DNA from: a virus
Lineage: Duplodnaviria; Heunggongvirae; Uroviricota; Caudoviricetes
Virus record (IMG/VR): IMGVR_UViG_2778261452_000005
Length of the DNA stretch: 34,108 nucleotides
Strand: one strand, 5' to 3'
Shown: one piece after another, positions 1-31,488 of the stretch
How positions within the stretch are numbered: the first letter of the stretch is position 1
Layout: each line of letters opens with the position of its first letter
The notes under the pieces: generated by a model
Seen by the model: only the letters and a program-made list of their open reading frames with translations
Databases searched by the model: none
Told to the model about the DNA's origin: nothing
Program-made: the position numbers and the translations under genes

Positions 1-1053
1 TTACGGGGTAATGCCAACCGCTGCCGCCACTTTGTCGCCACTTGGCAGCGTTGCCAGAGGATTGAAACGGAGCGCCGTTTCCAGATGATCCGGTGCCAGA
101 TGTGCGTAACGCATAGTCATTTTTATATCGTGGTGTCCGAGAATTTTTTGTAAGGCCAGAATGTTTCCACCCGACATCATGAAGTGCGCCGCAAACGTAT
201 GGCGCAGAACGTGTGTGAGTTGACCGCGAGGGAGCACGATAGACGTTTTTTCCATCACGGATAAAAATTGAAAATAGCAGTCTGTGAAGAAATTGAACCC
301 ATCAAGCGCCATGATCTCTTCGTAAAGCTCTTTACTGATAGGGATGCTTCTGTTTTTCTTCCCCTTCGTTCTTACAAAGGTAATTCGGTATTTGGTCACC
401 TGTGAACGAGTAAGATTTACGGCTTCTCGCCAGCGTGCGCCTGTGCTTAAGCATATCTTAACTACCAGTGCCAGAATTGGGTCCTGACGTTTGCAATCAG
501 CCAGTAATTCAACAATCTGCTCATGGGTAAGCCATGCCATCTCTTTTTCTGCGATGGTGAATTTTCGCATGTTCTCCAGTGGGTTCGGATACGACCATTC
601 GCCCAGGCGGGATAGTTCGCTAAAAACACTACTTAGATAGCTTTGCTCCAGGTTAATGGTGACCGGGCTTGCTCCTTTCTTCCATTTCTCGCTGAAGTAG
701 ATCTCACCTGTCAGGCGTTTATCTCGATAGTGGGCAAACATTTTAGAGGTGAGATCAGTTGCAAGGGGATTGCCCAGAGCGTCAACCATCAGCAGCAATT
801 TGTCATAGACATGCTGCCCAGCAGTCAGTGATTTACCATGTAGTTTGAACCATAGCTCAACCACGTCTTTCAGTGTTCGACGATCCACTGATTCACCTAG
901 CCAGGGCTTTGCTTCGGTTTCTTCCATCGTGTGACGCTCAAAAGCCAGTGCTTCGCCTTTGGTGGCGAATTGTTTACGCACACGACGCCCACTACGTCCG
1001 GCGGGGTAACATTCGCAAAGCCATTTTCCTGTGGTGAGTTTTCGTACAGCCAT
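1..1053 (-). CDS. int: Tyrosine integrase (P2/186 family)
   Basis: ORF 1..1131; start chosen at ATG 1051-1053, preceded by GGAGGG at about 8 nt. Carries ARWREA, HVLRHTF and RYAHL motifs typical of tyrosine recombinases. Stop codon at 1-3. Confidence 0.9.
   Translation of the reverse strand: MAVRKLTTGKWLCECYPAGRSGRRVRKQFATKGEALAFERHTMEETEAKPWLGESVDRRTLKDVVELWFKLHGKSLTAGQHVYDKLLLMVDALGNPLATDLTSKMFAHYRDKRLTGEIYFSEKWKKGASPVTINLEQSYLSSVFSELSRLGEWSYPNPLENMRKFTIAEKEMAWLTHEQIVELLADCKRQDPILALVVKICLSTGARWREAVNLTRSQVTKYRITFVRTKGKKNRSIPISKELYEEIMALDGFNFFTDCYFQFLSVMEKTSIVLPRGQLTHVLRHTFAAHFMMSGGNILALQKILGHHDIKMTMRYAHLAPDHLETALRFNPLATLPSGDKVAAAVGITP
19..40. repeat. attL core candidate (CGCTGCCGCCACTTTGTCGCCA)
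   Basis: 21/22 identical to 31254-31275; lies inside the last codons of int. Confidence 0.65.
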
Positions 1054-1077
1054 AAAAAATGCCCTCCAATAGAGAGC

Positions 1078-1106
1078 ATTTTTACTGTATGTATAACCAG
1101 TGTCAA
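1078..1106 (-). promoter_or_regulatory. Candidate int-proximal promoter (TTGACA-N17-AAAAAT on minus strand) with LexA-like box in the spacer
   Basis: Plus-strand tgtcaa at 1101-1106 gives a perfect -35 on the minus strand. TACTGTATGTATAACCAGTG at 1083-1102 has the CTG-N10-CAG spacing of a LexA box. Confidence 0.3.
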
Positions 1107-1241
1107 TGTATGAAATCCTGCGACCATACATCTCACTGAAGCCATAATGAAGTAGGCTATTCTTTTTGCTATGTGATCATGTAACTTTTGCGGTTAACCT
1201 GTGGCTCATTTTTATTTTAGGCGCAGATATAAAAGCAAAAG

Positions 1242-1448: not shown

Positions 1449-2018
1449 CTATTTAACATACTTGACTGTTAAGCTTATAATTTTACCAATTATTTCAATG
1501 TCTTCTATCTTACATTCGAAGGCTCTGTTTCCACCCTCGACGAAGATTCTTCCACCGGGTAAACGAGTAATGTCACGGATCGTTATTTCGCCATCAATAC
1601 TTATTACCCATTTACCATCACGTATATCATCAAATTCCTTATCACAAATAAATTCAGAATTATTATCTGTGATTACAAAAAGATTCTTGAATGCCGACGG
1701 TAGAAATTCTCTATCGAAAATATAAAAACCGTCTTCACACAAGGCCCCATCAGATAATACATATTTAGCAACTTCCATAGTATTTGTATTACCTGAAGTT
1801 TGCTTTGAACCATGCCCGGTTGTGAGCCAATTAAGCGAGGTTCCTGTTTCAAGGGCGCACTGGATTACCCATTCTGCTGGGAATGAGTCACGCATGTAGC
1901 GTGTGGCGAGTGTACTTTTAGAGATTCCTAAATGATCGCACAACGCCTGTCGAGTCTTGAATCCATAAGCTTCTACCATGCGCTCTATGGCGCCTCGTCC
2001 GCCTTTCTCCAAATTCAT
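1449..2018 (-). CDS. cI: CI-type lysogeny repressor (186 CI-like)
   Basis: ORF 1449..2024; ATG at 2016-2018 with GGAG SD. Position divergent from apl/cII; EAYGF and CALETG..LNWL..G motifs resemble 186 CI as I recall it. Confidence 0.8.
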   Translation of the reverse strand: MNLEKGGRGAIERMVEAYGFKTRQALCDHLGISKSTLATRYMRDSFPAEWVIQCALETGTSLNWLTTGHGSKQTSGNTNTMEVAKYVLSDGALCEDGFYIFDREFLPSAFKNLFVITDNNSEFICDKEFDDIRDGKWVISIDGEITIRDITRLPGGRIFVEGGNRAFECKIEDIEIIGKIISLTVKYVK

Positions 2019-2143
2019 GGTCACTCCAAGTGAACTTTTATCTTGACGATTTCACTGTGCGATCGTATGTTTATGGTGTTCACAAAATACAAACGATCCG
2101 TATTCGTCCTGATTAATCATCATTAAACGAGGAATGTTGCATC
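2019..2143. promoter_or_regulatory. Lysis-lysogeny switch region (pR/pL-type) between cI and apl
   Basis: Candidate rightward promoter TTGACG (2043-2048) N17 TATGTT (2066-2071); short inverted repeat AGTGAA/TTCACT flanks the -35. pL not located. Confidence 0.45.
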
Positions 2144-7365: not shown

Positions 7366-7554
7366 ATGCAGGACTATTTTTTGGAGTCTTTGAAGCTCCA
7401 GCGCATTGATTTTTTTCTTAAGCTTGTAGCGGCTAGTGAGTGTAGTGATGAAGAGAAGGGGCTGGCCCTGCAGTGGGTTTCTGAACTGACAGATGAACTC
7501 ATGGCAAAAATCAGAACCCACGAATACAACCGCTCAATGGATGTCATCAGCTGA
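7366..7554 (+). CDS. Small SOS-operon protein (62 aa), possible Tum-like antirepressor N-terminal part
   Basis: AGGAGG SD; immediately downstream of the LexA box; same position as 186 tum. Confidence 0.55.
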   Translation: MQDYFLESLKLQRIDFFLKLVAASECSDEEKGLALQWVSELTDELMAKIRTHEYNRSMDVIS

Positions 7555-7564
7555 GGTGACTTTT

Positions 7565-7798
7565 ATGCGCATTGAAATAATGATCGATAAAGAGCAGAAG
7601 ATTAGCCAGTCTACACTGGACGCCCTTGAATCCGAGCTTTACCGCAATCTGCGCCCCCTGTATCCCAAAACGGTAATTCGTATCCGCAAAGGTAGCTCTA
7701 ACGGTGTGGAACTGACCGGACTGCAACTGGACGAAGAAAGAAAACAAGTGATGAAAATTATGCAGAAGGTGTGGGAAGACGACAGCTGGCTGCATTAA
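7565..7798 (+). CDS. DinI-family protein
   Basis: 78 aa, MRIEIMIDK...WEDDSWL resembles E. coli DinI; GAGGTG SD overlaps the stop of the upstream ORF. Confidence 0.75.
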   Translation: MRIEIMIDKEQKISQSTLDALESELYRNLRPLYPKTVIRIRKGSSNGVELTGLQLDEERKQVMKIMQKVWEDDSWLH

Positions 7799-7957
7799 GA
7801 AACGTTGCTGGCGTCTGAAATTGCTTCTGGCGTCAGCAAGGTTGAACAACGAGTACAGTGAGGCGTTAGGTGTGGCGTTTATTTGATGAGTGAACGCCCG
7901 TTCTGCGACAGGTTTGGAGATTAAGGTTGAAACTACGGGCAAAATACCATCTTTTTC

Positions 7958-8383
7958 CTACTTAATTGAGTCCAGTAACAAGTTACAGTTACTCTCATTG
8001 TAGAGAGAACGAGCAATTAGTGTTACCTGCTTTCCATTCATTCCCGGCTTATCCCATAACACAGCTTCTTGCGACGCCACAAATTCAGCATAATCAATTA
8101 TGCGTTGTTCGTGATCTGGTTCCTCATAGCCAAAGTATGAGAGCGCATCGTTGTAAGCGTGGTAAGCTGCTTTCTGTAATATCTTGATATCGGCTGTAGG
8201 TACTTGCTCCGTGTAGCTAGGATCTAATTGTGTGCTACTGCCATAGAATGCACATGAAAGGTAAGATATTGATTTCTGTTGAGCTTTAGTTCCTTTCTCA
8301 TAGTTTTTAGCTGTTACCGCCTGAACTGGGACGCTAACAAAGCTTGCAACCAGAATTAAAATTAATACGTAAAAGCTTTTCAT
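7958..8383 (-). CDS. Hypothetical secreted (signal-peptide) protein, 141 aa; cargo gene
   Basis: GAGGT SD; N-terminal MKSFYVLILILVASFVSVPVQA looks like a cleavable signal peptide; AT-rich; sits at the P2 tin/old-equivalent position. Confidence 0.6.
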   Translation of the reverse strand: MKSFYVLILILVASFVSVPVQAVTAKNYEKGTKAQQKSISYLSCAFYGSSTQLDPSYTEQVPTADIKILQKAAYHAYNDALSYFGYEEPDHEQRIIDYAEFVASQEAVLWDKPGMNGKQVTLIARSLYNESNCNLLLDSIK

Positions 8384-8569
8384 TTTGACCTCAGCCGAAA
8401 CGTTAGAGAGACTATCGAAGTTTGTAAAACCCGTGGCGATTCAGTTTGAGATCCTCCCCCTTACATGATTTTTAATCAAATATATGCTTTTGTAAGCATA
8501 CCTGTTAACCGAATTATTCATTTTTAGAGATCTTCCGACATACTGATTATGCCCGCTGAGGAGTTCACC

Positions 8570-8686
8570 TTGCGTAAAGTCCGATTCGCTTTACTCGTCT
8601 GTGCATGTCTATGCTGCATGAGATTGCATGATCGTTTGAGGATCGTTTTTGCTAAGGCCCGCCAGAACTGGCGGGCTTTTGCGTAG
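8570..8686 (+). CDS. Candidate small ORF (38 aa, TTG start), basic N-terminus and Cys-rich hydrophobic core
   Basis: GAGGAG SD 6 nt upstream of TTG 8570; translation MRKVRFALLVCACLCCMRLHDRLRIVFAKARQNWRAFA; terminator-like hairpin overlaps its 3' end. Too short for the ORF track. Confidence 0.25.
   Translation: MRKVRFALLVCACLCCMRLHDRLRIVFAKARQNWRAFA
8657..8680 (+). terminator. Intrinsic-terminator-like hairpin (GCCCGCCAG..CTGGCGGGC + TTTT)
   Basis: GC-rich inverted repeat 8657-8676 followed by TTTT at 8677-8680. Confidence 0.45.
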
Positions 8687-8725
8687 ATTATGCACCTGCA
8701 TGAAAACCACTACATAAAGCGGGCA

Positions 8726-8744
8726 GGCGTGGCGGGGATACGAG
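8726..8744. other. Candidate cos (cohesive-end) site
   Basis: GGCGTGGCGGGGATACGAG resembles the 19-nt P2/186 cohesive ends as I recall them (GGCG[A/T]GGCGGGGAAAGCA-); located in the gpA-to-Q intergenic region where cos maps in P2-like prophages. Confidence 0.45.
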
Positions 8745-8833
8745 CGCGCGCTGATGGGGGACGCAGTGCTTTTGGCATAGTTATGAGGTAGAATTTCAAA
8801 ATACTTTTTAGCGCTGTTGGAGGTATAGACAAA

Positions 8834-9379
8834 ATGGACGTTATAACTGGAGTTGCAGAGTTTTTTCGAAAAGTACCTGCAGCATTTCTTGTGGCTATTA
8901 CATGTGTTTTAGGTCTTATACTTTTTCTGCCAGACTCTTTGGCAGTAAAAGTGGCTGTTGATGGCTTTCGTAATGAGTATAGGATTTTTATTGGACCTGC
9001 ATTTTTACTGTCTGTATCTTATTTAGTTGCAAGAGTCTATCTCTCTTTCTATGACTTACTTGGTGAAAGGCAGGCTAAGAAGGTACGCACTTCCTACCTT
9101 GAGAAGCTAACAGCAGAAGAAAAAGGATATTTAAAGTCTTATATTACCGAAGGTGTTAATTCACTTATGTGTGGGCCTGAGGATGGGGTCATGGGGGGAC
9201 TTGTGGCTAAGGGGATTACTTATAGAGCCACCAGTGTTGGGGATATGATCTACGGTTTTGCTTTCAACTTACAGCCATGGGCGCGTGAACATTTAGAGAA
9301 AAATAGTCATTTATTAGATGGGGCTATTGGGCGTGCAATGACTCCAAGAGAAAAATTAAACTTTAGATTGGGACGCTAA
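8834..9379 (+). CDS. Hypothetical inner-membrane protein (181 aa, two N-terminal TM helices); possible superinfection-exclusion/abortive-infection candidate
   Basis: GGAGGT SD; two hydrophobic helices (about aa 14-35 and 51-71) and a soluble C-terminal domain; lies between the cos-like site and the portal gene, where P2 has no gene. Confidence 0.6.
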   Translation: MDVITGVAEFFRKVPAAFLVAITCVLGLILFLPDSLAVKVAVDGFRNEYRIFIGPAFLLSVSYLVARVYLSFYDLLGERQAKKVRTSYLEKLTAEEKGYLKSYITEGVNSLMCGPEDGVMGGLVAKGITYRATSVGDMIYGFAFNLQPWAREHLEKNSHLLDGAIGRAMTPREKLNFRLGR

Positions 9380-9408
9380 CCAGTCACACATTACCAATGT
9401 GTGACTGG
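9380..9408. terminator. Perfect 11-bp inverted repeat between convergent genes (likely terminator)
   Basis: CCAGTCACACA-ttaccaa-TGTGTGACTGG directly after stop 9377-9379, followed by a T-rich tract. Confidence 0.5.
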
Positions 9409-9423
9409 TGGTGGTTATTTCTT

Positions 9424-10458
9424 TTATTCAATGTCAAATTTATATGGTTCAAAAGAAATAACCTTTTCCCCCAACCACTCATTTAGTTCTTCGAGTCTTT
9501 TTTGTAGCGGTATTAACTCATTACGGACAAAGACGCGGCTGGCTTTTTCCACATCACCAAAGCCGCCGGTATTGTTAGGAATAATGCCCATCATCTGCGG
9601 CGGTACGCGGTGTGCTGCCATCATGTCATCGCGGCTCACGTTCTTAATGTTCAGAAATTCATCCTTTGCTGCAACCTCAGACAGTGGGATGATCTGGATG
9701 CCGTCTTTTTTACCGTTGGGCGAATACATAAACAGGTTGCGGAAGTTGCCCGGACCTTTGGCGCTTTTCATCGCGTTGCGGAGGTTGTTCACATCCTCCT
9801 GGTTCTGCGCGGCGTCAGTCATATACATGATGAAGCCTGCATGGCTGCCGTTGATGTAATACTTACGGCGGAACAGCGTGGCGGACTCGTTGAGCAGGGC
9901 TGACGGAATGGCAGAAAGATAACCGGGCAGGCCGTAGATCTCCTGATTAATATCCGGTTCCATCAGATGAAAAATGCTGCCTTTCGTGAACTGATACGGC
10001 TGGGTTGTCATACCGTATTGCACAAACCAGTAGGTATCCAGGTCTAATCCGCGTCGGGTGTATTTTGCCAGCGCAGGTTCAAGGGCGATCACTTCACCGA
10101 AGCGGTTCGTGCGTTTCTCCAGATAGGCATTGCCAAATACCAGATAGTCCTGCACAAAACGCGAAAAAGCCTGCTGGCTGAGCAGCGGGTGAGGGATGTA
10201 GGTACTGGTCAGAATGTTGCACTTTACTGCAATCGGGGAACTGTGATGCACTGCAGCGCGGAAGGTGCGCGCCAGTCCGTCAAAGCTGACGGGCGGCTCA
10301 TACCAACGGTCCATCTGTACGCATTCCACATAGTCCAGTAATTCTCGGCGGTCCAGAACAGGAACGGGATCGCCGAAGCTGAATGCTTCGGCTGTAGTTT
10401 GACTTTTAAGCTGGATCTGTTTCGTCGCCGCAGCGCGGTTCTTCTTACTCTTTCCCAT
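9424..10458 (-). CDS. Q: Portal protein (P2 gpQ-like)
   Basis: 344 aa from ATG 10456-10458 (track ORF starts at TTG 10461); length and position match P2 Q; overlaps the P stop. Confidence 0.85.
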   Translation of the reverse strand: MGKSKKNRAAATKQIQLKSQTTAEAFSFGDPVPVLDRRELLDYVECVQMDRWYEPPVSFDGLARTFRAAVHHSSPIAVKCNILTSTYIPHPLLSQQAFSRFVQDYLVFGNAYLEKRTNRFGEVIALEPALAKYTRRGLDLDTYWFVQYGMTTQPYQFTKGSIFHLMEPDINQEIYGLPGYLSAIPSALLNESATLFRRKYYINGSHAGFIMYMTDAAQNQEDVNNLRNAMKSAKGPGNFRNLFMYSPNGKKDGIQIIPLSEVAAKDEFLNIKNVSRDDMMAAHRVPPQMMGIIPNNTGGFGDVEKASRVFVRNELIPLQKRLEELNEWLGEKVISFEPYKFDIE

Positions 10459-20670: not shown

Positions 20671-22184
20671 GCACAAAATTTTATACCCTGCTGACGGATA
20701 TTGGCGCGGCGAAACTTGCCAGCGCCGCCGCGCTCGGTGTGCCGCTAAAAATTACCCATATGGCGGTGGGCGATGGCGGCGGAGTATTGCCAACGCCGGA
20801 CGCAAAGCAGACGGCACTGGTAAATGAGAAACGCCGGGCTGCGCTGAATATGCTTTATATCGACCCGCAGAACAGTAGCCAGATTATTGCTGAACAGGTG
20901 ATCCCTGAAAACGAGGGCGGTTGGTGGATACGTGAAGTGGGCCTGTTTGATGAGTCCGGGGCATTGATTGCCGTGGGAAACTGCCCGGAAAGCTATAAGC
21001 CGCAACTGGCTGAAGGCAGCGGGCGTACCCAGACCGTGCGCATGGTACTGATTACCAGCAGCACGGACAATATCACCCTGAAAATCGACCCTGCCGTAGT
21101 GCTGGCAACCCGCAAGTATGTGGATGATAAGGTACTGGAGCTGAAGGTGTACGCGGATGATCAGATGGCAAAACATCTTGCCGCACCGGACCCGCATTCA
21201 CAGTATGCACAGAAAGAAAGTCCTACGTTTACCGGGACACCCAAAGCGCCAACGCCAGCGGCGGGGAATAACACCACGCAGGTTGCGACCACAGCGTTTG
21301 TTCAGGCTGCACTGACGGCTATTATTAATGATGCGCCAGCCACGCTGGACACGCTGAAAGAAATAGCCGTAGCCATTAACAATGATCCGAAATTCAGTAC
21401 CACCATTAACAATGCGCTGGCACTGAAAGCTCCGCTGTCGAGTCCGGCACTCACCGGAACGCCAACAGCCCCCACGGCGGCGCAGTCGGTCAATAATACA
21501 CAGATTGCCACTACGGCTTTTGTGAAATCGGCGATTGCAGGAATGGTGGGTTCTGCACCTGCGGCACTGGATACACTGAACGAACTGGCGGCGGCACTGG
21601 GGAATGACCCGAACTTTGCCACGACAATGCTTAATGCACTGGCAGGTAAACAACCGCTGGACAATACGCTGACTAATTTGAGTGGAAAGGATGTAGCTGG
21701 TCTTCTCGCATACCTTGGTCTGGGGGAAACGATAAATAAAGCCTCCGGAGCTATGCAGAAATCAGCTAATGGTTCTGATATTTCTGATATATCAGCCTTC
21801 CGAAATGCGCTCCGGTTAGGGGCCGCTGCAACACGAGATGTTGGAGGGGATAATGCCTCGAAGTTACTGGATTTAGACAGTTTCAGGTCAATGATGTCAG
21901 GTAATGGCTACATCTACATTCCATGCATTGCGACGACAGGAAACCCGGTGAAACTTATGTTGCAGTGGGGAACGGTGGCAACACAAAAGGGAGCTGATGC
22001 TGGATATGCCTTACCATTTGCTTTTCCCTATGCAGGCTTGTTTGCGACCGGAAACCGTGGAACATCTGGCTACAATGCCGCGATGAATGTGCGTATTGCC
22101 AGCAGAACGCATATCAGTATTCAGAACTGGTCGCCATCCGGAGAGGGCACCGAAGATTGTTGTTTTATCGCGCTGGGGTATTAA
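20667..22184 (+). CDS. H: Tail fibre protein (P2 gpH-like) with internal tandem repeats
   Basis: 505 aa; two copies of a roughly 70-aa module (TGTP.APT.A...TQ.ATTAFV...APA.LDTL.E.A.A...DP.F) and a divergent C-terminal domain. Confidence 0.85.
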   Translation: MSTKFYTLLTDIGAAKLASAAALGVPLKITHMAVGDGGGVLPTPDAKQTALVNEKRRAALNMLYIDPQNSSQIIAEQVIPENEGGWWIREVGLFDESGALIAVGNCPESYKPQLAEGSGRTQTVRMVLITSSTDNITLKIDPAVVLATRKYVDDKVLELKVYADDQMAKHLAAPDPHSQYAQKESPTFTGTPKAPTPAAGNNTTQVATTAFVQAALTAIINDAPATLDTLKEIAVAINNDPKFSTTINNALALKAPLSSPALTGTPTAPTAAQSVNNTQIATTAFVKSAIAGMVGSAPAALDTLNELAAALGNDPNFATTMLNALAGKQPLDNTLTNLSGKDVAGLLAYLGLGETINKASGAMQKSANGSDISDISAFRNALRLGAAATRDVGGDNASKLLDLDSFRSMMSGNGYIYIPCIATTGNPVKLMLQWGTVATQKGADAGYALPFAFPYAGLFATGNRGTSGYNAAMNVRIASRTHISIQNWSPSGEGTEDCCFIALGY

Positions 22185-22186
22185 GA

Positions 22187-22600
22187 ATGAATAAATTTTA
22201 TAAAGGCTCTTTCTATCCGGAAGCACTAAAAGAGGTATATATCAGCGCTGGCTCATGGCCTGAAAACGGCGTTGATGTTGATGATGAAACAATGGCAATT
22301 TACACGGGTGTCGTACCGCAGGGTAAAATGCTAGGTTCCGATAAAAATGGCAACCCTGCTTGGGTGGATATTCCGCCTCTTTCAACGGAGCAATTAGTTG
22401 CCATTATGGAGCAGAAGAAAGGGAAACTTCGTTCGATAGCCGATGCTGAAATTAGCTGGCGACAGGATGCCGTTGATGAAGGGATAGCGACGAAAGAGGA
22501 AACTGCCGCTTTAACTGAATGGAAGAAATACCGTGTGCTGTTGATGCGTGTTGATACATCACTAGCCCCCAATATTGATTGGCCCGAAGTGCCTGTTTGA
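22187..22600 (+). CDS. G: Tail fibre assembly chaperone (P2 gpG-like)
   Basis: ATG 22187 directly after the H stop; 137 aa. Confidence 0.8.
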   Translation: MNKFYKGSFYPEALKEVYISAGSWPENGVDVDDETMAIYTGVVPQGKMLGSDKNGNPAWVDIPPLSTEQLVAIMEQKKGKLRSIADAEISWRQDAVDEGIATKEETAALTEWKKYRVLLMRVDTSLAPNIDWPEVPV

Positions 22601-22616
22601 GTATTTTCAATACGTA

Positions 22617-22639
22617 TTAGGGGGGAGTATCCCCCCTAA
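22617..22639. terminator. Hairpin between convergent G and acyltransferase genes (TTAGGGGGG-agtat-CCCCCCTAA)
   Basis: Perfect 9-bp inverted repeat between stops 22598-22600 and 22644-22646. Confidence 0.5.
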
Positions 22640-22643
22640 AATA

Positions 22644-23783
22644 TTATGCTGTCTTGAACTGTAAAAGCACTTTACTAATTCTTCCCGACAGTAATACAGC
22701 TGGTTTATCGAAAAGACGATAGAAACCCCAGGACACTGGTAAGCTTATGGCTACGCAAATTATTATTGATATGAGGCTTGCTGCTAATTCATCAATGCGT
22801 AAGGACAAGTAGTTAAATGATGGTATTGCTACCGCGTAAATTAAAACCATTTGTAATAAATATAATGAGAAAGATATCTTGCCTAAAAATATTGCTGGTT
22901 TTGTAGATAGTATATTGTTAACCCCATTGCTCCTCAATGCAAATAAAACAATAAAAATACCAGAGAATAAAAACAGGGTGTACTCAGTTAAGTAATTATT
23001 AATATCTGAGAAAATGCTTGAATAGGCATATGATTGTACTTTATATCCAGCAAAGTATAATCCAAGAATTAGGATTGCGACAGATGATTTTTTTGATAGT
23101 TTAATATTTGTCTTGTATATTACGGAGCCAGACATAAAACAAGCCAATCCATAGTATAGTGCGTCGCCATCATTGTAATAGCCTAGTGATAGGAATATAA
23201 GAAATACAATCGCTGGAAAAAGTGCGGAGTTTGTTTTCTTGGATATAAATAGTAAAGCCAGAATATATGATCCGATGAGTTCAATTTTCATGGTCCATAA
23301 TACCCAGTTATAGGTCTTAACACCATCCCCACCAAAAGCACCTATTAATCCTGTGAATATGGCACCATGTAAGCTGTAATCAAAGGTTCCTAGATTTGAG
23401 GCCCATTCGGAAATGCCAGTTCTATTTATATCTATGTGTGAGTATACAGCCCATCCAATCAAACAAGAGAAAAATACTGGCACCATTAATCTTATATATC
23501 TTTTTAAAAGGAATGCAAAGAAAAGAATTGAATCAAATCGCTTAGAGAAACTTGAAGATAAAACAAAACCACTTAATACAAAGAATACGTAGACTCCAGC
23601 AGAGCCAGAGTAAAAAAAAGAGAAAGGAGAGTTCATGATATAACTCTCAAAAGAATACCTCATGGACTCTGCTGCATGCATATATGGGTAGAAAGTATAT
23701 GCAAGATGTGAGAAAAACACAGCAAGACAGGCGATGCCTCTGAGACCGTCCGCATTACTATTGTGTTCTTGAGCAACACTCAT
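22644..23783 (-). CDS. Membrane acyltransferase (acyltransferase-3 / OafA-like family), probable lysogenic-conversion cargo
   Basis: About 10 predicted TM helices; N-terminal motif DGLRGIACLAVFFSHL typical of acyltransferase-3 enzymes; strongly AT-rich; inserted between G and FI (the P2 Z/fun position). Confidence 0.75.
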   Translation of the reverse strand: MSVAQEHNSNADGLRGIACLAVFFSHLAYTFYPYMHAAESMRYSFESYIMNSPFSFFYSGSAGVYVFFVLSGFVLSSSFSKRFDSILFFAFLLKRYIRLMVPVFFSCLIGWAVYSHIDINRTGISEWASNLGTFDYSLHGAIFTGLIGAFGGDGVKTYNWVLWTMKIELIGSYILALLFISKKTNSALFPAIVFLIFLSLGYYNDGDALYYGLACFMSGSVIYKTNIKLSKKSSVAILILGLYFAGYKVQSYAYSSIFSDINNYLTEYTLFLFSGIFIVLFALRSNGVNNILSTKPAIFLGKISFSLYLLQMVLIYAVAIPSFNYLSLRIDELAASLISIIICVAISLPVSWGFYRLFDKPAVLLSGRISKVLLQFKTA

Positions 23784-23854
23784 GAAAATTAACCTATGTT
23801 TAGAGTAATGTAGCCTAAAACGCCTAATCAAAAATAGGCGGATACCTTTGAGGC

Positions 23855-23890
23855 CATTCTAGCCTGAGGTTACATTCTAGCCTGAGGTTA
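23855..23890. repeat. Perfect tandem direct repeat, 2 x 18 bp (CATTCTAGCCTGAGGTTA)
   Basis: Units at 23855-23872 and 23873-23890, upstream of the acyltransferase gene. Confidence 0.9.
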
Positions 23891-24013
23891 ATCAAGATAC
23901 CATTATGCTTTCATATCCAATCTGGCCGGAAGCGTCGCATCTGTTTCTCGCTAAGTATCAACGTAGTAAGCATCCATCAGTTCACTGATCATTCACCTTC
24001 TTAAAACTGCTAT

Positions 24014-24031
24014 TGTGCCAGCGCTGGCACA
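24014..24031 (+). promoter_or_regulatory. Late-promoter activator site (TGT-N12-ACA) upstream of FI
   Basis: TGTGCCAGCGCTGGCACA, a perfect palindrome, about 75 bp upstream of ATG 24107. Confidence 0.6.
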
Positions 24032-24106
24032 GGGTTAAACGCGTGCGCCGCGTGCATATCAACCAGAACATAGGCACACCCCCCTGTAAACCGGAGAGAT
24101 TGCCTT

Positions 24107-25279
24107 ATGGCTCAGGATTACCACCACGGGGTGCGCGTTGTTGAAGTCAACGAGGGCACCCGATCTATCACCACGGTGAGCACCGCTATCGTGGGCATGG
24201 TCTGCACCGGCGATGATGCTGATGCGTCCGTATTCCCTCTCAATAAGCCGGTTCTGCTGACGGATGTGCTGGAGGCTAGCGGTAAAGCAGGCGAGTCAGG
24301 CACGCTGGCCCGTTCGCTGGATGCGATTGCCGACCAGTCAAAACCCGTGACCGTTGTTGTGCGTGTGCCGCAGGGTGAAACGGAAGAAGAAACCACGACC
24401 AATATCATCGGCGCAGTGACTGCTGAAGGTAAAAAAACAGGCATGAAAGCCCTGTTATCTGCCCAGACACAGCTCGGCGTTAAACCGCGCATTCTCGGCG
24501 TGCCAGGTCACGATAACAAAGCCGTTGCTACTGAGTTGTTGAGTGTGGCGCAAAGCCTGCGTGGGTTTGCTTACCTGTCAGCGTATGGCTGCAAGACGGT
24601 GCAGGAGGCGCTCACTTACCGTGAAAACTTCAGCCAGCGCGAAGGAATGCTGATCTGGCCCGACTTTACTGGCTGGGACACGGTGCTGAATGCCGAAACA
24701 ACGGCATATGCCACCGCCCGTGCGCTTGGTCTGCGTGCCAAAATTGATGAGCAGACTGGGTGGCACAAAAGCCTGTCCAACGTGGGCGTGAACGGTGTCA
24801 CCGGAATTTCTGCAGATGTGTTCTGGGATCTGCAGGACCCGGCAACCGATGCAGGTCTGCTGAACCAGAACGACGTCACCACGCTTGTGCGCAAGGACGG
24901 TTTCCGCTTCTGGGGTTCCCGCTGCCTGAGTGATGACCCGCTCTTTGCCTTCGAAAACTACACCCGTACGGCGCAGGTGCTGATGGACACGATGGCAGAA
25001 GCACACATGTGGGCGGTGGATAAACCGCTTAACCCGTCGCTGGCCCGCGACATTATCGAAGGTATCCGCGCCAAAATGCGCAGCCTGGTCAGTCAGGGCT
25101 ATCTCATTGGTGGTGATTGCTGGCTGGATGAGTCGGTGAACGACAAAGACACGCTGAAAGCCGGAAAACTCACCATCGACTATGACTACACGCCAGTGCC
25201 GCCACTTGAAAATCTGATGCTGCGCCAGCGCATCACCGATCAGTACCTGGTGAATTTCGCCAGCCAGGTCAGCGCGTAA
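24107..25279 (+). CDS. FI: Tail sheath protein (P2 gpFI-like)
   Basis: 390 aa, GGAGAG SD, followed by the tail tube gene. Confidence 0.9.
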
Positions 25280-31275: not shown

Positions 31276-31339
31276 TCGTTAAAAAACAGTGCTTCTAACA
31301 TCATGATTTTAAACAGCATAAATTTCAGGCAACAAAAAA

Positions 31340-31376
31340 CCCATCAACCTTGAACCGAAATGGCGGGGTTGATGGG
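31340..31376 (-). terminator. Terminator-like hairpin downstream of ybjL (minus strand)
   Basis: CCCATCAACC...GGTTGATGGG inverted repeat with a long loop, followed on the minus strand by TTTTTTGTT. Confidence 0.4.
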
Positions 31377-31488
31377 CTCCACAAAATGGGGACATCAAAG
31401 AAAAGCAGTGGCACTAATTAAGACTGATGCCCTGCGGAAAAGTTCTGCGGTTGTGCAAAAAAATTTCATTTTCAGGGCAACTTCAGTT

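What the first reader, a model, noticed from the sequence alone, without database searches (positions are those of the whole stretch)
22644..23783. AT-rich acyltransferase-3 family gene at the tail-fibre/sheath hotspot (probable O-antigen modification)
A 379-aa polytopic membrane protein with the N-terminal acyltransferase-3 signature is inserted, in opposite orientation, between G and FI, the position of P2 Z/fun. It is bracketed by a perfect hairpin (22617-22639) and a tandem repeat (23855-23890), and is visibly more AT-rich than the tail genes. Such enzymes commonly acetylate O-antigen, causing seroconversion and receptor masking.
Basis: partly seen in the sequence, partly recalled or inferred. 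Interest (0 to 1): 0.55.

Follow-up and report, generated by a model that had tools for sequence, protein, structure and literature searches.

The report
Prophage acyltransferase matched to host O-antigen
A P2-like prophage of E. coli carries, between its tail-fibre and tail-sheath genes, an intact membrane acyltransferase that most likely acetylates the host's O-antigen; this kind of cargo gene is already published at this slot (neaT of strain CFT073), so it is a new member of a known kind, but its strict pairing with one O-antigen type gives a testable substrate.

Summary
There is a 379-aa ORF at 22644-23783 (-), with a Pfam Acyl_transf_3 match over nearly its whole length. It lies on the opposite strand between tail-fibre assembly gene G and sheath gene FI. 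Its GC is 35% against about 55% in the tail genes. A perfect 10-bp-stem hairpin and an 18-bp x2 repeat are both present.

The catalytic motifs are intact, the AlphaFold model (pLDDT 91) matches HGSNAT/GWT1, and dN/dS is 0.08.

The arrangement is published. The window's prophage is 94-97% identical to CFT073 prophage phi-b0847, whose "moron position 2" holds neaT, a PF01757 acyltransferase of unknown substrate. The window's gene is a different, barely related AT3 in that same slot.

New here: the window's gene occurs in 5 of 5426 complete E. coli genomes. These are exactly the 5 that carry one O89/O101/O162-family rfb variant, in at least 3 chromosomal backgrounds; a Citrobacter sequencing run pairs homologues of both. 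neaT occurs only in O6 strains (9/9 genomes).

This supports O-antigen acetylation but does not prove it. The 18-bp repeat is a copy-number polymorphism, not a cassette border.

The parts
22644..23783 (-). AT3-only acyltransferase gene (379 aa), the cargo of the G|FI slot
22617..22639 (.). Perfect stem-loop between the converging genes G and AT3, at the place where P2 has its V-operon terminator
   Evidence: Other AT3 alleles have unrelated hairpins at the same place. No U-tract, and not called by the terminator scan.
22561..24010 (.). Low-GC cassette (about 35-39% GC) that replaces other cargo in sibling phages
   Evidence: Homology to related phages stops at about 22558-22561 and resumes at 24011 for Fels-2-type phages, 24040 for CFT073 and 24106 for EC590. 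Composition.
23855..23890 (.). 18-bp tandem duplication in the AT3 upstream region; a copy-number polymorphism (1 or 2 copies)
   Evidence: KSC64 has 2 copies and MB06234 has 1, though both share the same deletion junction. L064 has 2 and tcmA_3 has 1. Citrobacter has 1.
23784..24010 (-). AT3 upstream (promoter) region; the promoter was not identified. A speculative TTGATT(23895-23890)-N17-TAACCT(23872-23867) exists only in the 2-copy form.
   Evidence: Read. No site in this stretch was called by the consensus scan. The region is conserved in Citrobacter. For neaT, 211 bp of upstream DNA sufficed for expression (PMC3573123).
24014..24031 (+). Palindrome TGTGCCAGC|GCTGGCACA (TGT-N12-ACA), the likely Ogr-type activator site of the late pF promoter for FI
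   Evidence: Sequence. It lies 76-93 nt upstream of the FI ATG, like the activator site annotated in P2. The motif identity rests on my own knowledge of P2 late promoters.
22187..22600 (+). Tail-fibre assembly gene G (chaperone), converging on the AT3 gene
   Evidence: PF02413, 2e-37. RefSeq CDS.
21725..22184 (+). 3' part of tail-fibre gene H (fibre tip, Gp53-like_C). Together with G and the AT3 gene it forms the block that differs from CFT073 phi-b0847.
   Evidence: Identity to CFT073 breaks at 21725 and resumes at 24040. This H-tip/G allele at >=99.8% occurs only in the 5 AT3-positive genomes.
24107..25279 (+). Tail sheath gene FI, right-hand neighbour
   Evidence: Pfam sheath domains.

Best explanation
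The gene is a lysogenic-conversion 'moron' of a P2-like (phi-b0847-family) prophage integrated between rcdA and ybjL. It encodes an AT3-only inner-membrane O-acyltransferase.

Proposed mechanism, by analogy with characterised AT3 enzymes. The protein takes an acyl group, most likely acetyl from acetyl-CoA, at the cytoplasmic face. It passes the group through its transmembrane pore (R15/H26 in helix 1, R95xxR98). It then puts the group on a sugar hydroxyl of the host's O-polysaccharide in the periplasm.

The likely acceptor is the O89/O101/O162-family variant made by the strains that carry this prophage, either its backbone or a side branch. That polymer is exported by Wzm/Wzt and would be modified before ligation to lipid A-core. 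The expected result is a changed O-epitope and changed recognition by phages and by the host immune system.

The gene is read against the late tail operons, presumably from its own upstream region, so it can be expressed in the lysogen. It stays intact while the prophage around it decays.

Shown: family membership, intact catalytic motifs, fold, purifying selection, position, and co-occurrence with the rfb type.

Inferred: acyl donor, acceptor, expression in the lysogen, and phenotype.
For: AT3 membership and intact motifs. The motif definitions come from PMC7448272.

Selection: dN/dS 0.08 against the 76%-identical homologue. The ORF is intact inside several differently deleted prophage remnants. 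It is also intact in Citrobacter remnants whose sheath, tube and G genes are frameshifted.

Phage association of the clade: relatives of 40-76% identity lie next to the tail-fibre end of unrelated prophage types. The gene sits after the receptor-binding protein gene with a hairpin in between and on the opposite strand, as oac does in Sf6.

O-type link in E. coli: the cassette is in 5 of 5426 genomes, and the rfb variant is full-length in exactly the same 5.
- PSS-15 differs from AREA_497 by 142 SNPs in 15.5 kb of chromosomal flank, while KSC64 differs by 3.
- tcmA_3 carries the prophage at ssrA. Its rfb region is a recombination import ending at hisF/hisA.
- Strain A1 has the same local backbone as AREA_497, an empty att site, and is not among the 5 genomes that hold the cassette or the rfb variant.

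O-type link in Citrobacter: the nearest homologues (86-87%) of the rfb-specific glycosyltransferase are in Citrobacter braakii. A >=90%-identical AT3 also occurs in that species. Both are found in the same sequencing run, SRR8198986.

Second instance: neaT, a barely related AT3 (BLASTP E=0.13), fills the same slot of the sibling prophage. It occurs in 9 genomes, all of which have O6 wzy; O6 wzy is present in 154 of 5426 genomes. These include strains 1.5-3% apart in chromosomal flank.

Literature: phage AT3-only enzymes acetylate O-antigen and block superinfection (PMC9558356).
Against: There is no biochemical evidence.

The rfb association could arise from phage host range alone, because the fibre-tip allele is equally restricted.

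I saw no O-acetyl group in the O101/O162 structure descriptions I read. The structure of this particular variant is unknown to me.

The protein is only 26% identical to Sf6 Oac. AT3-only enzymes have many kinds of acceptor (PMC9558356).

The nearest non-phage relatives are conserved chromosomal Acinetobacter genes outside surface-polysaccharide loci.

For NeaT, the published phenotypes are aggregation, macrophage association and bacteremia fitness. They were never tied to LPS.

No promoter could be identified.

The number of independent E. coli lineages is small (about 3, plus Citrobacter). SRR8198986 was not checked to be a single isolate.
Confidence: 0.6

Rival explanations
1. The enzyme acylates a different envelope molecule. 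Candidates are enterobacterial common antigen, a capsule or K antigen, colanic acid, periplasmic glucans, peptidoglycan, or the product of the gnd-ugd accessory genes. Under this view the pairing with one rfb type only reflects the host range of the phage that carries it.
For: AT3-only proteins have diverse acceptors (PMC9558356; PMC13345540). The fibre-tip/G allele is as restricted as the AT3 gene, so host range alone could create the association. The published NeaT phenotypes were not linked to LPS. The host strains carry an unusual gnd-ugd cluster with GtrA-like and glycosyltransferase genes that could make a side branch.
Against: Glycans common to all E. coli would not explain why two unrelated AT3 alleles each keep to one O-type. 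They would also not explain why the AT3 gene is kept in remnants that can no longer make phage in the same O-type lineage. In the published tests, deletion of neaT did not change sensitivity to lysozyme, polymyxin B or human serum.
Confidence: 0.25
2. The gene is mainly a host-fitness or virulence factor, as reported for NeaT. It would change surface behaviour (aggregation, uptake by phagocytes) and have no role in phage exclusion. This is not exclusive of O-antigen acetylation.
For: NeaT in the same slot of the sibling prophage promotes fitness in bacteremia and reduces association with macrophages (PMC3573123). The window's gene is kept in decayed prophages.
Against: The carriers are from stool, pigs and seawater rather than bloodstream isolates. 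The two proteins are barely related. No phenotype data exist for this gene.
Confidence: 0.1
3. The gene is an inert passenger or a decaying gene with no current function.
For: It is foreign in composition and no promoter was found.
Against: The ORF is intact with all catalytic motifs. dN/dS is 0.08. The exact protein is on 232 contigs. It stays intact where neighbouring phage genes are deleted or frameshifted. The cassette differs by 1-2 nt between prophages whose backbones differ by 1.4-2%.
Confidence: 0.03
4. It is an intracellular anti-phage defence gene, like other cargo of P2 hotspots (Fun(Z), old, tin), acting by a mechanism other than glycan modification.
For: The slot is a known hotspot for defence cargo (PMC9122126; bioRxiv 2024.10.15.618418).
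Against: No PADLOC model matches. There is no similarity to Fun(Z). The fold and motifs are those of a transmembrane acyltransferase.
Confidence: 0.02

Closest known systems
NeaT of E. coli CFT073 prophage phi-b0847 (Wiles et al. 2013, PMC3573123)
   Same: Same phage family: the backbone is 94-97% identical. Same integration site, rcdA|ybjL (b0847 = ybjL). Same slot, 'moron position 2' between G and FI. Same opposite orientation, same Pfam family PF01757, strongly AT-rich, AT3-only.
   Different: The two proteins are barely related (BLASTP E=0.13), with 379 against 343 aa and 35% against 30% GC. The fibre tip and G also differ. neaT is found in O6 strains and the window's gene in an O89/O101/O162-family variant. 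The NeaT substrate is unknown, and the paper's main text never mentions LPS or O antigen.
Oac (OacA) of Shigella phage Sf6, and the related OacB/C/D and the PhiV10 enzyme
   Same: AT3-only enzyme of a temperate phage. Shares the R/K-x10-H, FFxxSG and RxxR motifs. The gene lies directly after the receptor-binding tail protein gene, on the opposite strand, with a shared stem-loop and its own promoter. Function: O-antigen O-acetylation that blocks superinfection (PMC9558356).
   Different: Only 26% identity over 300 aa. Different phage type: P22-like podovirus with a tailspike against P2-like myovirus with a fibre. The Shigella O-antigen target is not the O-antigen type of this prophage's carrier strains, which use the ABC-transporter (Wzm/Wzt) pathway. 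No biochemical data exist for this gene.
Fun(Z) of phage P2
   Same: Same slot and same orientation, between the V-operon terminator and the pF activator site. A non-essential lysogenic-conversion gene.
   Different: No sequence similarity. Fun(Z) is not a PF01757 protein by that comparison. According to the P2 record, the cloned gene blocks growth of T5.
OafA / OafB (GtrC family II) of Salmonella and OatA: AT3-SGNH fused acetyltransferases
   Same: They share the AT3 transmembrane domain with the same core motifs. OafB is prophage-borne and protects against phage BTP1 (PMC9558356).
   Different: No SGNH domain: 379 aa, with the only Pfam hits being PF01757 and a sub-threshold DUF418.
Prophage-borne acetyltransferases that modify Acinetobacter capsules (PMC13228068)
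   Same: A 35-40% identical homologue (P0054) lies at the tail end of an A. baumannii siphovirus-type prophage. The literature reports phage-encoded acetyltransferases (Atr44 and others) that O-acetylate capsule sugars.
   Different: I did not test whether P0054 is one of the published Atr proteins. The target there is capsule, not O-antigen.

Membership tests
Acyltransferase-3 (Pfam PF01757) / TmAT superfamily | Profile match above the curated cut-off | tested here: met
   91.4 bits against a cut-off of 31, E=7.6e-26, residues 10-352.
Acyltransferase-3 (Pfam PF01757) / TmAT superfamily | Invariant His in helix 1 within an R/K-x10-H motif (OafA R14/H25; PMC7448272) | tested here: met
   R15 and H26 are invariant in 14- and 62-sequence alignments, the first including Sf6 Oac.
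Acyltransferase-3 (Pfam PF01757) / TmAT superfamily | FFxISG-type motif in helix 2 | tested here: met
   F67 F68 V L S71 G72; F67, F68, S71 and G72 are invariant.
Acyltransferase-3 (Pfam PF01757) / TmAT superfamily | RxxR motif (Oac R73/R75, OafA R69/R72) | tested here: met
   R95-Y-I-R98; both Arg are invariant.
Acyltransferase-3 (Pfam PF01757) / TmAT superfamily | Conserved transmembrane Gly equivalent to OafA G202 | tested here: inconclusive
   Invariant glycines exist (G219, G241, G246). OafA itself was not aligned, so equivalence is not established.
Acyltransferase-3 (Pfam PF01757) / TmAT superfamily | Multi-helix transmembrane fold shared with HGSNAT and GWT1 | tested here: met
Acyltransferase-3 (Pfam PF01757) / TmAT superfamily | Acyl transfer to an extracytoplasmic acceptor | not testable with these tools
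   Needs biochemistry.
Phage-encoded O-antigen O-acetyltransferases (Oac type) | AT3-only protein encoded by a temperate phage beside its receptor-binding tail gene, transcribed on its own | tested here: met
   Position and orientation. The same layout is seen in Sf6. Independent transcription is inferred, not shown.
Phage-encoded O-antigen O-acetyltransferases (Oac type) | Close sequence relationship to a characterised Oac | tested here: not met
   26% identity and E=4e-9 to Sf6 Oac. No hit to other phage records except Pantoea PA-1 at 29%.
Phage-encoded O-antigen O-acetyltransferases (Oac type) | Link between the gene and a particular O-antigen | tested here: met
   5/5 two-way co-occurrence with one rfb variant among 5426 genomes. 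At least 3 chromosomal backgrounds. Citrobacter pairing. This is correlation only.
Phage-encoded O-antigen O-acetyltransferases (Oac type) | Demonstrated O-acetylation, seroconversion or adsorption block | not testable with these tools
   Needs LPS chemistry and phage assays.
Cargo of the P2 Z/fun hotspot ('moron position 2') | Lies between G and FI, after the V-operon terminator and before the pF activator site, and is not needed for lytic growth | tested here: met
   P2 annotation. Window anatomy. Sibling phages carry neaT or an invertible fibre segment with an invertase there. Hotspot described and in PMC3573123.
NeaT family (orthologue of neaT of CFT073) | Sequence similarity to NeaT beyond shared Pfam membership | tested here: not met
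   BLASTP E=0.13 over 75 residues. The neaT DNA is absent from the 5 carrier genomes.
AT3-SGNH fused acetyltransferases (OafA, OafB, OatA) | C-terminal periplasmic SGNH domain | tested here: not met
   379 aa; no SGNH or GDSL hit.
Known anti-phage defence systems (PADLOC) | Match to a defence-system model | tested here: not met
   No family at E<=0.01.

The most novel reading that the evidence does not exclude
In phi-b0847-family P2-like prophages, the block [fibre tip + chaperone G + AT3 gene] would be a serotype-matched host-specificity module. Each AT3 allele would acetylate the very O-antigen of the strains its phage infects: this gene an O89/O101/O162-family variant, and neaT the O6 antigen. 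That would give NeaT, a published bacteremia fitness factor, its long-missing substrate. The gene would then be domesticated as the prophage decays. In addition, the 18-bp unit that toggles between one and two copies would change the promoter, and so the level of acetylation.
Probability: 0.3. Interest if true: 0.6.

Novelty: new member of a known kind. Interest (0 to 1): 0.42.

Why it matters
O-acetylation changes O-epitopes, phage receptors and vaccine antigens. The O101/O162 group is under study for conjugate vaccines, and its structural heterogeneity affects opsonic antibodies (PMC13168486). A mobile acetyltransferase tied to one member of that group would add a layer of variation that rfb-based genotyping cannot see.

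The serotype restriction of two unrelated AT3 alleles in one prophage slot also gives a concrete, cheap hypothesis for NeaT. Its virulence effect was shown in 2013 but its substrate never found. The test is to compare the O6 polysaccharide of CFT073 with that of its neaT deletion mutant.

More generally, it shows that the P2 tail hotspot carries receptor-modifying cargo that varies together with the fibre tip.

Tried and rejected
- **NCBIfam:** no model matched the AT3, G, H or FI proteins.
- **PADLOC:** nothing for the AT3 protein or for the moron-1 ORFs.
- **Phage collection:** no record holds the cassette DNA. By protein, the only hit was Pantoea phage PA-1 at 29%.
- **Idea that the fibre tip, G and AT3 travel as one unit across phage types:** rejected for distant phages. 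Where the AT3 protein is 76% identical, G is only 46% identical and the fibre tip gives no hit. Within the phi-b0847 family, however, the three do differ together from CFT073.
- **Idea that the hairpin and repeat mark cassette ends:** rejected.
- **Promoter:** the consensus scan found no sigma-70 site in 23784-24010 on the minus strand. The TTGATT-N17-TAACCT site of the 2-copy form is my own reading and is weak (3/6 in the -10 hexamer). There is only one GATC in the upstream region (23987-23990, read), so a gtr-like Dam/OxyR phase switch is unlikely.
- **Rfam:** nothing in the cassette.
- **AimS of A. baumannii as the characterised relative:** not established. The chromosomal Acinetobacter homologue I examined has no hut genes beside it.
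- **SPC-P1 as a P2-like precedent:** not established as P2-like; the paper compares its G+C with P22/ST64T, and 'P2-like' does not occur in it.
- **Naming the rfb variant:** it is neither the classical O101/O162 layout (NCTC10973 type) nor the common Onovel32 type (92.4% identity over the first 5.8 kb only). I could not assign a serogroup.
Full report
**1. What is there.**
The window is an intact P2-like prophage.
- The integrase gene is at 1-1131 (-) and the CI repressor gene at 1449-2024 (-).
- Dam and replication gene A follow, then the head, lysis and tail genes.
- Host genes rybB (31331-31409), ybjL and ybjM lie on the right.

The finding's ORF is real: 22644-23783 on the minus strand, 379 aa from the ATG. 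RefSeq annotates the same CDS as 'acyltransferase family protein'.

Pfam Acyl_transf_3 matches residues 10-352 at 91.4 bits, against a cut-off of 31. PHROG 3333 'O-acetyltransferase' matches at 1e-29.

The left neighbours are tail fibre H and the fibre chaperone G. The right neighbour is sheath gene FI.

The gene has 35.2% GC (GC3 31%), against 53-57% in H, FI and T.

The hairpin at 22617-22639 is perfect and stable, but it has no U-tract. The 18-bp x2 repeat at 23855-23890 is exact.

**2. The slot.**
In the P2 record the order is G, a terminator for the V operon, fun(Z) on the minus strand, the activator site of pF, then FI. The window has the same order:
- G ends at 22600.
- The hairpin is at 22617-22639.
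- The AT3 gene runs on the minus strand.
- A perfect palindrome TGTGCCAGC|GCTGGCACA lies at 24014-24031. This is the TGT-N12-ACA form of Ogr-activated late promoters (my own knowledge).
- FI starts at 24107.

Homology to other P2-like phages stops at about 22558-22561, inside the end of G. It resumes at 24011 for Fels-2-type phages, 24040 for CFT073 and 24106 for EC590. The foreign cassette is therefore about 1.45 kb.

The closest fibre/G allele without this gene (EC590, 91.7%) carries an invertible alternative fibre tip plus an invertase in the slot. That fits what is described for this hotspot.

**3. The protein.**
Alignments with 13 and 61 relatives, the first set including Sf6 Oac, keep the following invariant: R15 and H26 (R-x10-H), F67 F68 x x S71 G72, R95 x x R98, N159, and W163 T164 ... 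E168. The first three are the motifs shown to be essential in OafA, OafB and Oac (PMC7448272).

There is no SGNH domain.

Against a 76%-identical homologue, dN/dS is 0.08 with saturated dS.

**4. Relatives and their homes.**
The exact protein is on 232 contigs of E. coli, and variants of at least 90% identity occur in Citrobacter braakii and C. europaeus. More distant relatives are again prophage cargo placed beside the tail-fibre end:

| Identity | Setting |
|---|---|
| 62% | Another P2-like phage, same G\|FI slot |
| 76%, 66%, 49% | Phages with Mu-type baseplates |
| 40% | A Serratia myovirus-type prophage |
| 35-40% | An A. baumannii siphovirus-type prophage |
| 29-31% | Pantoea phage PA-1, between tailspike and integrase |

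A large set of Acinetobacter homologues at about 33-40% identity includes one conserved chromosomal gene with no phage context.

The gene moves on its own between phage types. Where the AT3 protein is 76% identical, G is 46% identical and the fibre tip is unrelated. Each allele has its own, non-homologous hairpin downstream.

**5. Published precedent.**
Wiles et al. 2013 (PMC3573123) described neaT in CFT073. [quoted passage not shown] It has 29.8% GC and its own promoter within 211 bp. It promotes fitness in bacteremia, and its substrate is unknown. The words LPS and O antigen do not occur in the main text.

b0847 is ybjL, so this is the same integration site as the window.

The window is 94-97% identical to CFT073 phi-b0847, except for three regions:
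- the immunity region (1112-2130);
- moron position 1 (7869-9496);
- the block 21725-24040, which comprises the fibre tip, G and the AT3 cassette.

The two AT3 proteins are barely related (E=0.13). The finding is therefore a new member of a described kind, not a new kind.

**6. The link to one O-antigen.**
The cassette is in 5 of 5426 complete E. coli genomes.

The rfb cluster of one carrier, AREA_497, belongs to the O89/O101/O162 family. Its order is galE, GT, wzm, wzt, GT, GT, methyltransferase, GT, with seven more genes between gnd and ugd. Its full length is present in exactly 5 genomes, and they are the same five.

These carriers are not one clone.
- AREA_497, KSC64 and MB06234 are near-identical in 15.5 kb of chromosomal flank (3 SNPs between AREA_497 and KSC64). 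PSS-15 differs from AREA_497 by 142 SNPs.
- tcmA_3 is not among the top 40 matches for that flank. It carries the prophage at ssrA instead of ybjL.
- tcmA_3 shares 33.8 kb around rfb with AREA_497 at 11 SNPs. Identity then drops to 98.6% from within the his operon onward, which is the mark of a recombination import.
- Strain A1 has the same local backbone as AREA_497 but an empty att site. It is not among the five genomes holding either the cassette or the rfb variant.
- The prophage backbones differ by 1.4-2%, while the AT3 gene differs by only 1-2 nt.

The variant differs from the classical O101/O162 layout (NCTC10973 type) in the methyltransferase, the last GT and the gnd-ugd genes. It also differs from the common Onovel32 type (PMC13168486).

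The pairing extends across genera. The last GT of the variant has its nearest homologues (86-87%) in Citrobacter braakii, after which identity falls to 58%. The Citrobacter rfb has the same gene order. It comes from the same sequencing run (SRR8198986) as a Citrobacter locus with the >=90%-identical AT3 gene.

**7. A second instance.**
neaT is in 9 genomes (six strain names). A chimeric query of neaT plus O6 wzy showed that all nine also carry O6 wzy, which is present in 154 of 5426 genomes.

PEC399 is a pig isolate whose chromosomal flank is 1.5-3% diverged from CFT073. It has an identical neaT in a 97.8%-identical prophage with different moron-1 cargo.

So two unrelated AT3 alleles in one slot of sibling phages each keep to one O-type.

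**8. Reading of the evidence.**
The simplest account is the classical one for Sf6, BTP1 and PhiV10 (PMC9558356): the phage modifies the O-antigen of the hosts it infects. The data equally fit a restriction caused only by host range, because the fibre-tip allele is as restricted as the AT3 gene.

One observation favours a host-side benefit tied to that O-type. The gene stays intact in remnants that have lost head, lysis or tail genes through several different deletions. It also stays intact in Citrobacter remnants with frameshifted sheath, tube and G genes. There is a caveat: these loci were found by searching for the intact protein, so remnants that lost it would not be seen.

I put about 0.6 on O-antigen acylation. 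I put about 0.25 on another envelope acceptor.

**9. The repeat.**
The 18-bp unit is present once or twice in close relatives:
- two copies in the window, AREA_497 and KSC64;
- one copy in MB06234, which shares the FI|T deletion junction with KSC64;
- two copies in L064 and one in tcmA_3, which share a backbone type;
- one copy in Citrobacter.

The copy number has therefore changed more than once. In the two-copy form only, the minus strand reads TTGATT(23895-23890)-N17-TAACCT(23872-23867). With one copy the -10 position reads GCCTCA. This is a weak, untested promoter idea.

**10. Verdict.**
The feature is a new member of a known kind. Its modest extra value is the serotype matching, which makes the substrates of both this enzyme and NeaT directly testable.

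Noticed in passing
window 7493-9496 (moron position 1, between gene A and the portal gene): The other P2 hotspot holds a DinI-like gene (7493-7798), an unknown 141-aa ORF (7958-8383, -) and a SieB-family superinfection-exclusion gene (8834-9379). None matches a PADLOC model. Sibling prophages carry other cargo here: retron Ec78-type RT + ATPase + PtuB in AREA_497; a PD-(D/E)XK nuclease and ParA in PEC399; a TIGR02391 protein in CFT073.
   Followed up: partly
window 31331-31409 (-): The host sRNA gene rybB (105 bits) lies between the prophage's right end (ogr side) and ybjL. The phage attachment site is therefore at or next to rybB. The window starts at the stop codon of the integrase gene, so attL is outside it.
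   Followed up: no
L001, L002, L006 (E. coli AREA_497, MB06234, KSC64); L058, L060, L063: The same prophage occurs as a series of nested deletion remnants. KSC64 and MB06234 share the FI|T junction (window 24158|26279) and almost the same breakpoint in H (21131/21133), but it is joined to different upstream partners (4698 against 11354). This suggests successive deletions. G, the fibre tip and the AT3 gene survive in all of them.
   Followed up: partly
L055 19416-26979, L068 21801-29364, L074 13789-21353: The rfb variant of the carrier strains has seven genes between gnd and ugd: GT2, an LPG_synthase_TM-domain protein, two 'capsular biosynthesis' proteins, GT2, a ~930-955-aa unknown protein, and a GtrA-like protein. 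They differ from the oxidoreductase/isomerase set of classical O101/O162. They look like a periplasmic side-branch system and are conserved in Citrobacter.
   Followed up: no
L055 vs L068 (AREA_497 vs tcmA_3): A block of about 34 kb, running from the colanic-acid genes through rfb to hisF, is 99.97% identical in two different backgrounds. Identity then drops to 98.6%. This is a clear recombination import of the O-antigen region, including IS100/IS66 debris next to ugd.
   Followed up: partly
L078 28883-29914 (CFT073 neaT) and 8 other genomes: neaT, a published bacteremia fitness gene of unknown substrate, is found only in genomes with O6 wzy (9/9; O6 wzy is present in 154/5426). These include a pig isolate of a distant background. 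The original paper does not discuss O antigen.
   Followed up: partly
L069 5279-6585 (E. coli EC590): The nearest fibre/G allele without the AT3 gene has, in the same slot, an inverted alternative fibre tip, a small ORF and a Cin/Gin-type recombinase. This is a host-range switch in place of a receptor-modifying gene.
   Followed up: no
L071-L073 (Citrobacter braakii): A heavily decayed P2-like remnant at the Citrobacter ybjL locus keeps an intact AT3 gene. It lies next to defence-like cargo by the repressor gene: an SMC/AAA ATPase in two loci and a SNIPE/T5orf172 nuclease in the third.
   Followed up: no
L054 (Acinetobacter colistiniresistens) and loci L018-L045: A ~35%-identical AT3-only gene is a conserved chromosomal gene of many Acinetobacter species, outside any prophage or K locus in the one locus examined. 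Its function is unknown. It does not look like AimS, because no hut genes are nearby.
   Followed up: partly
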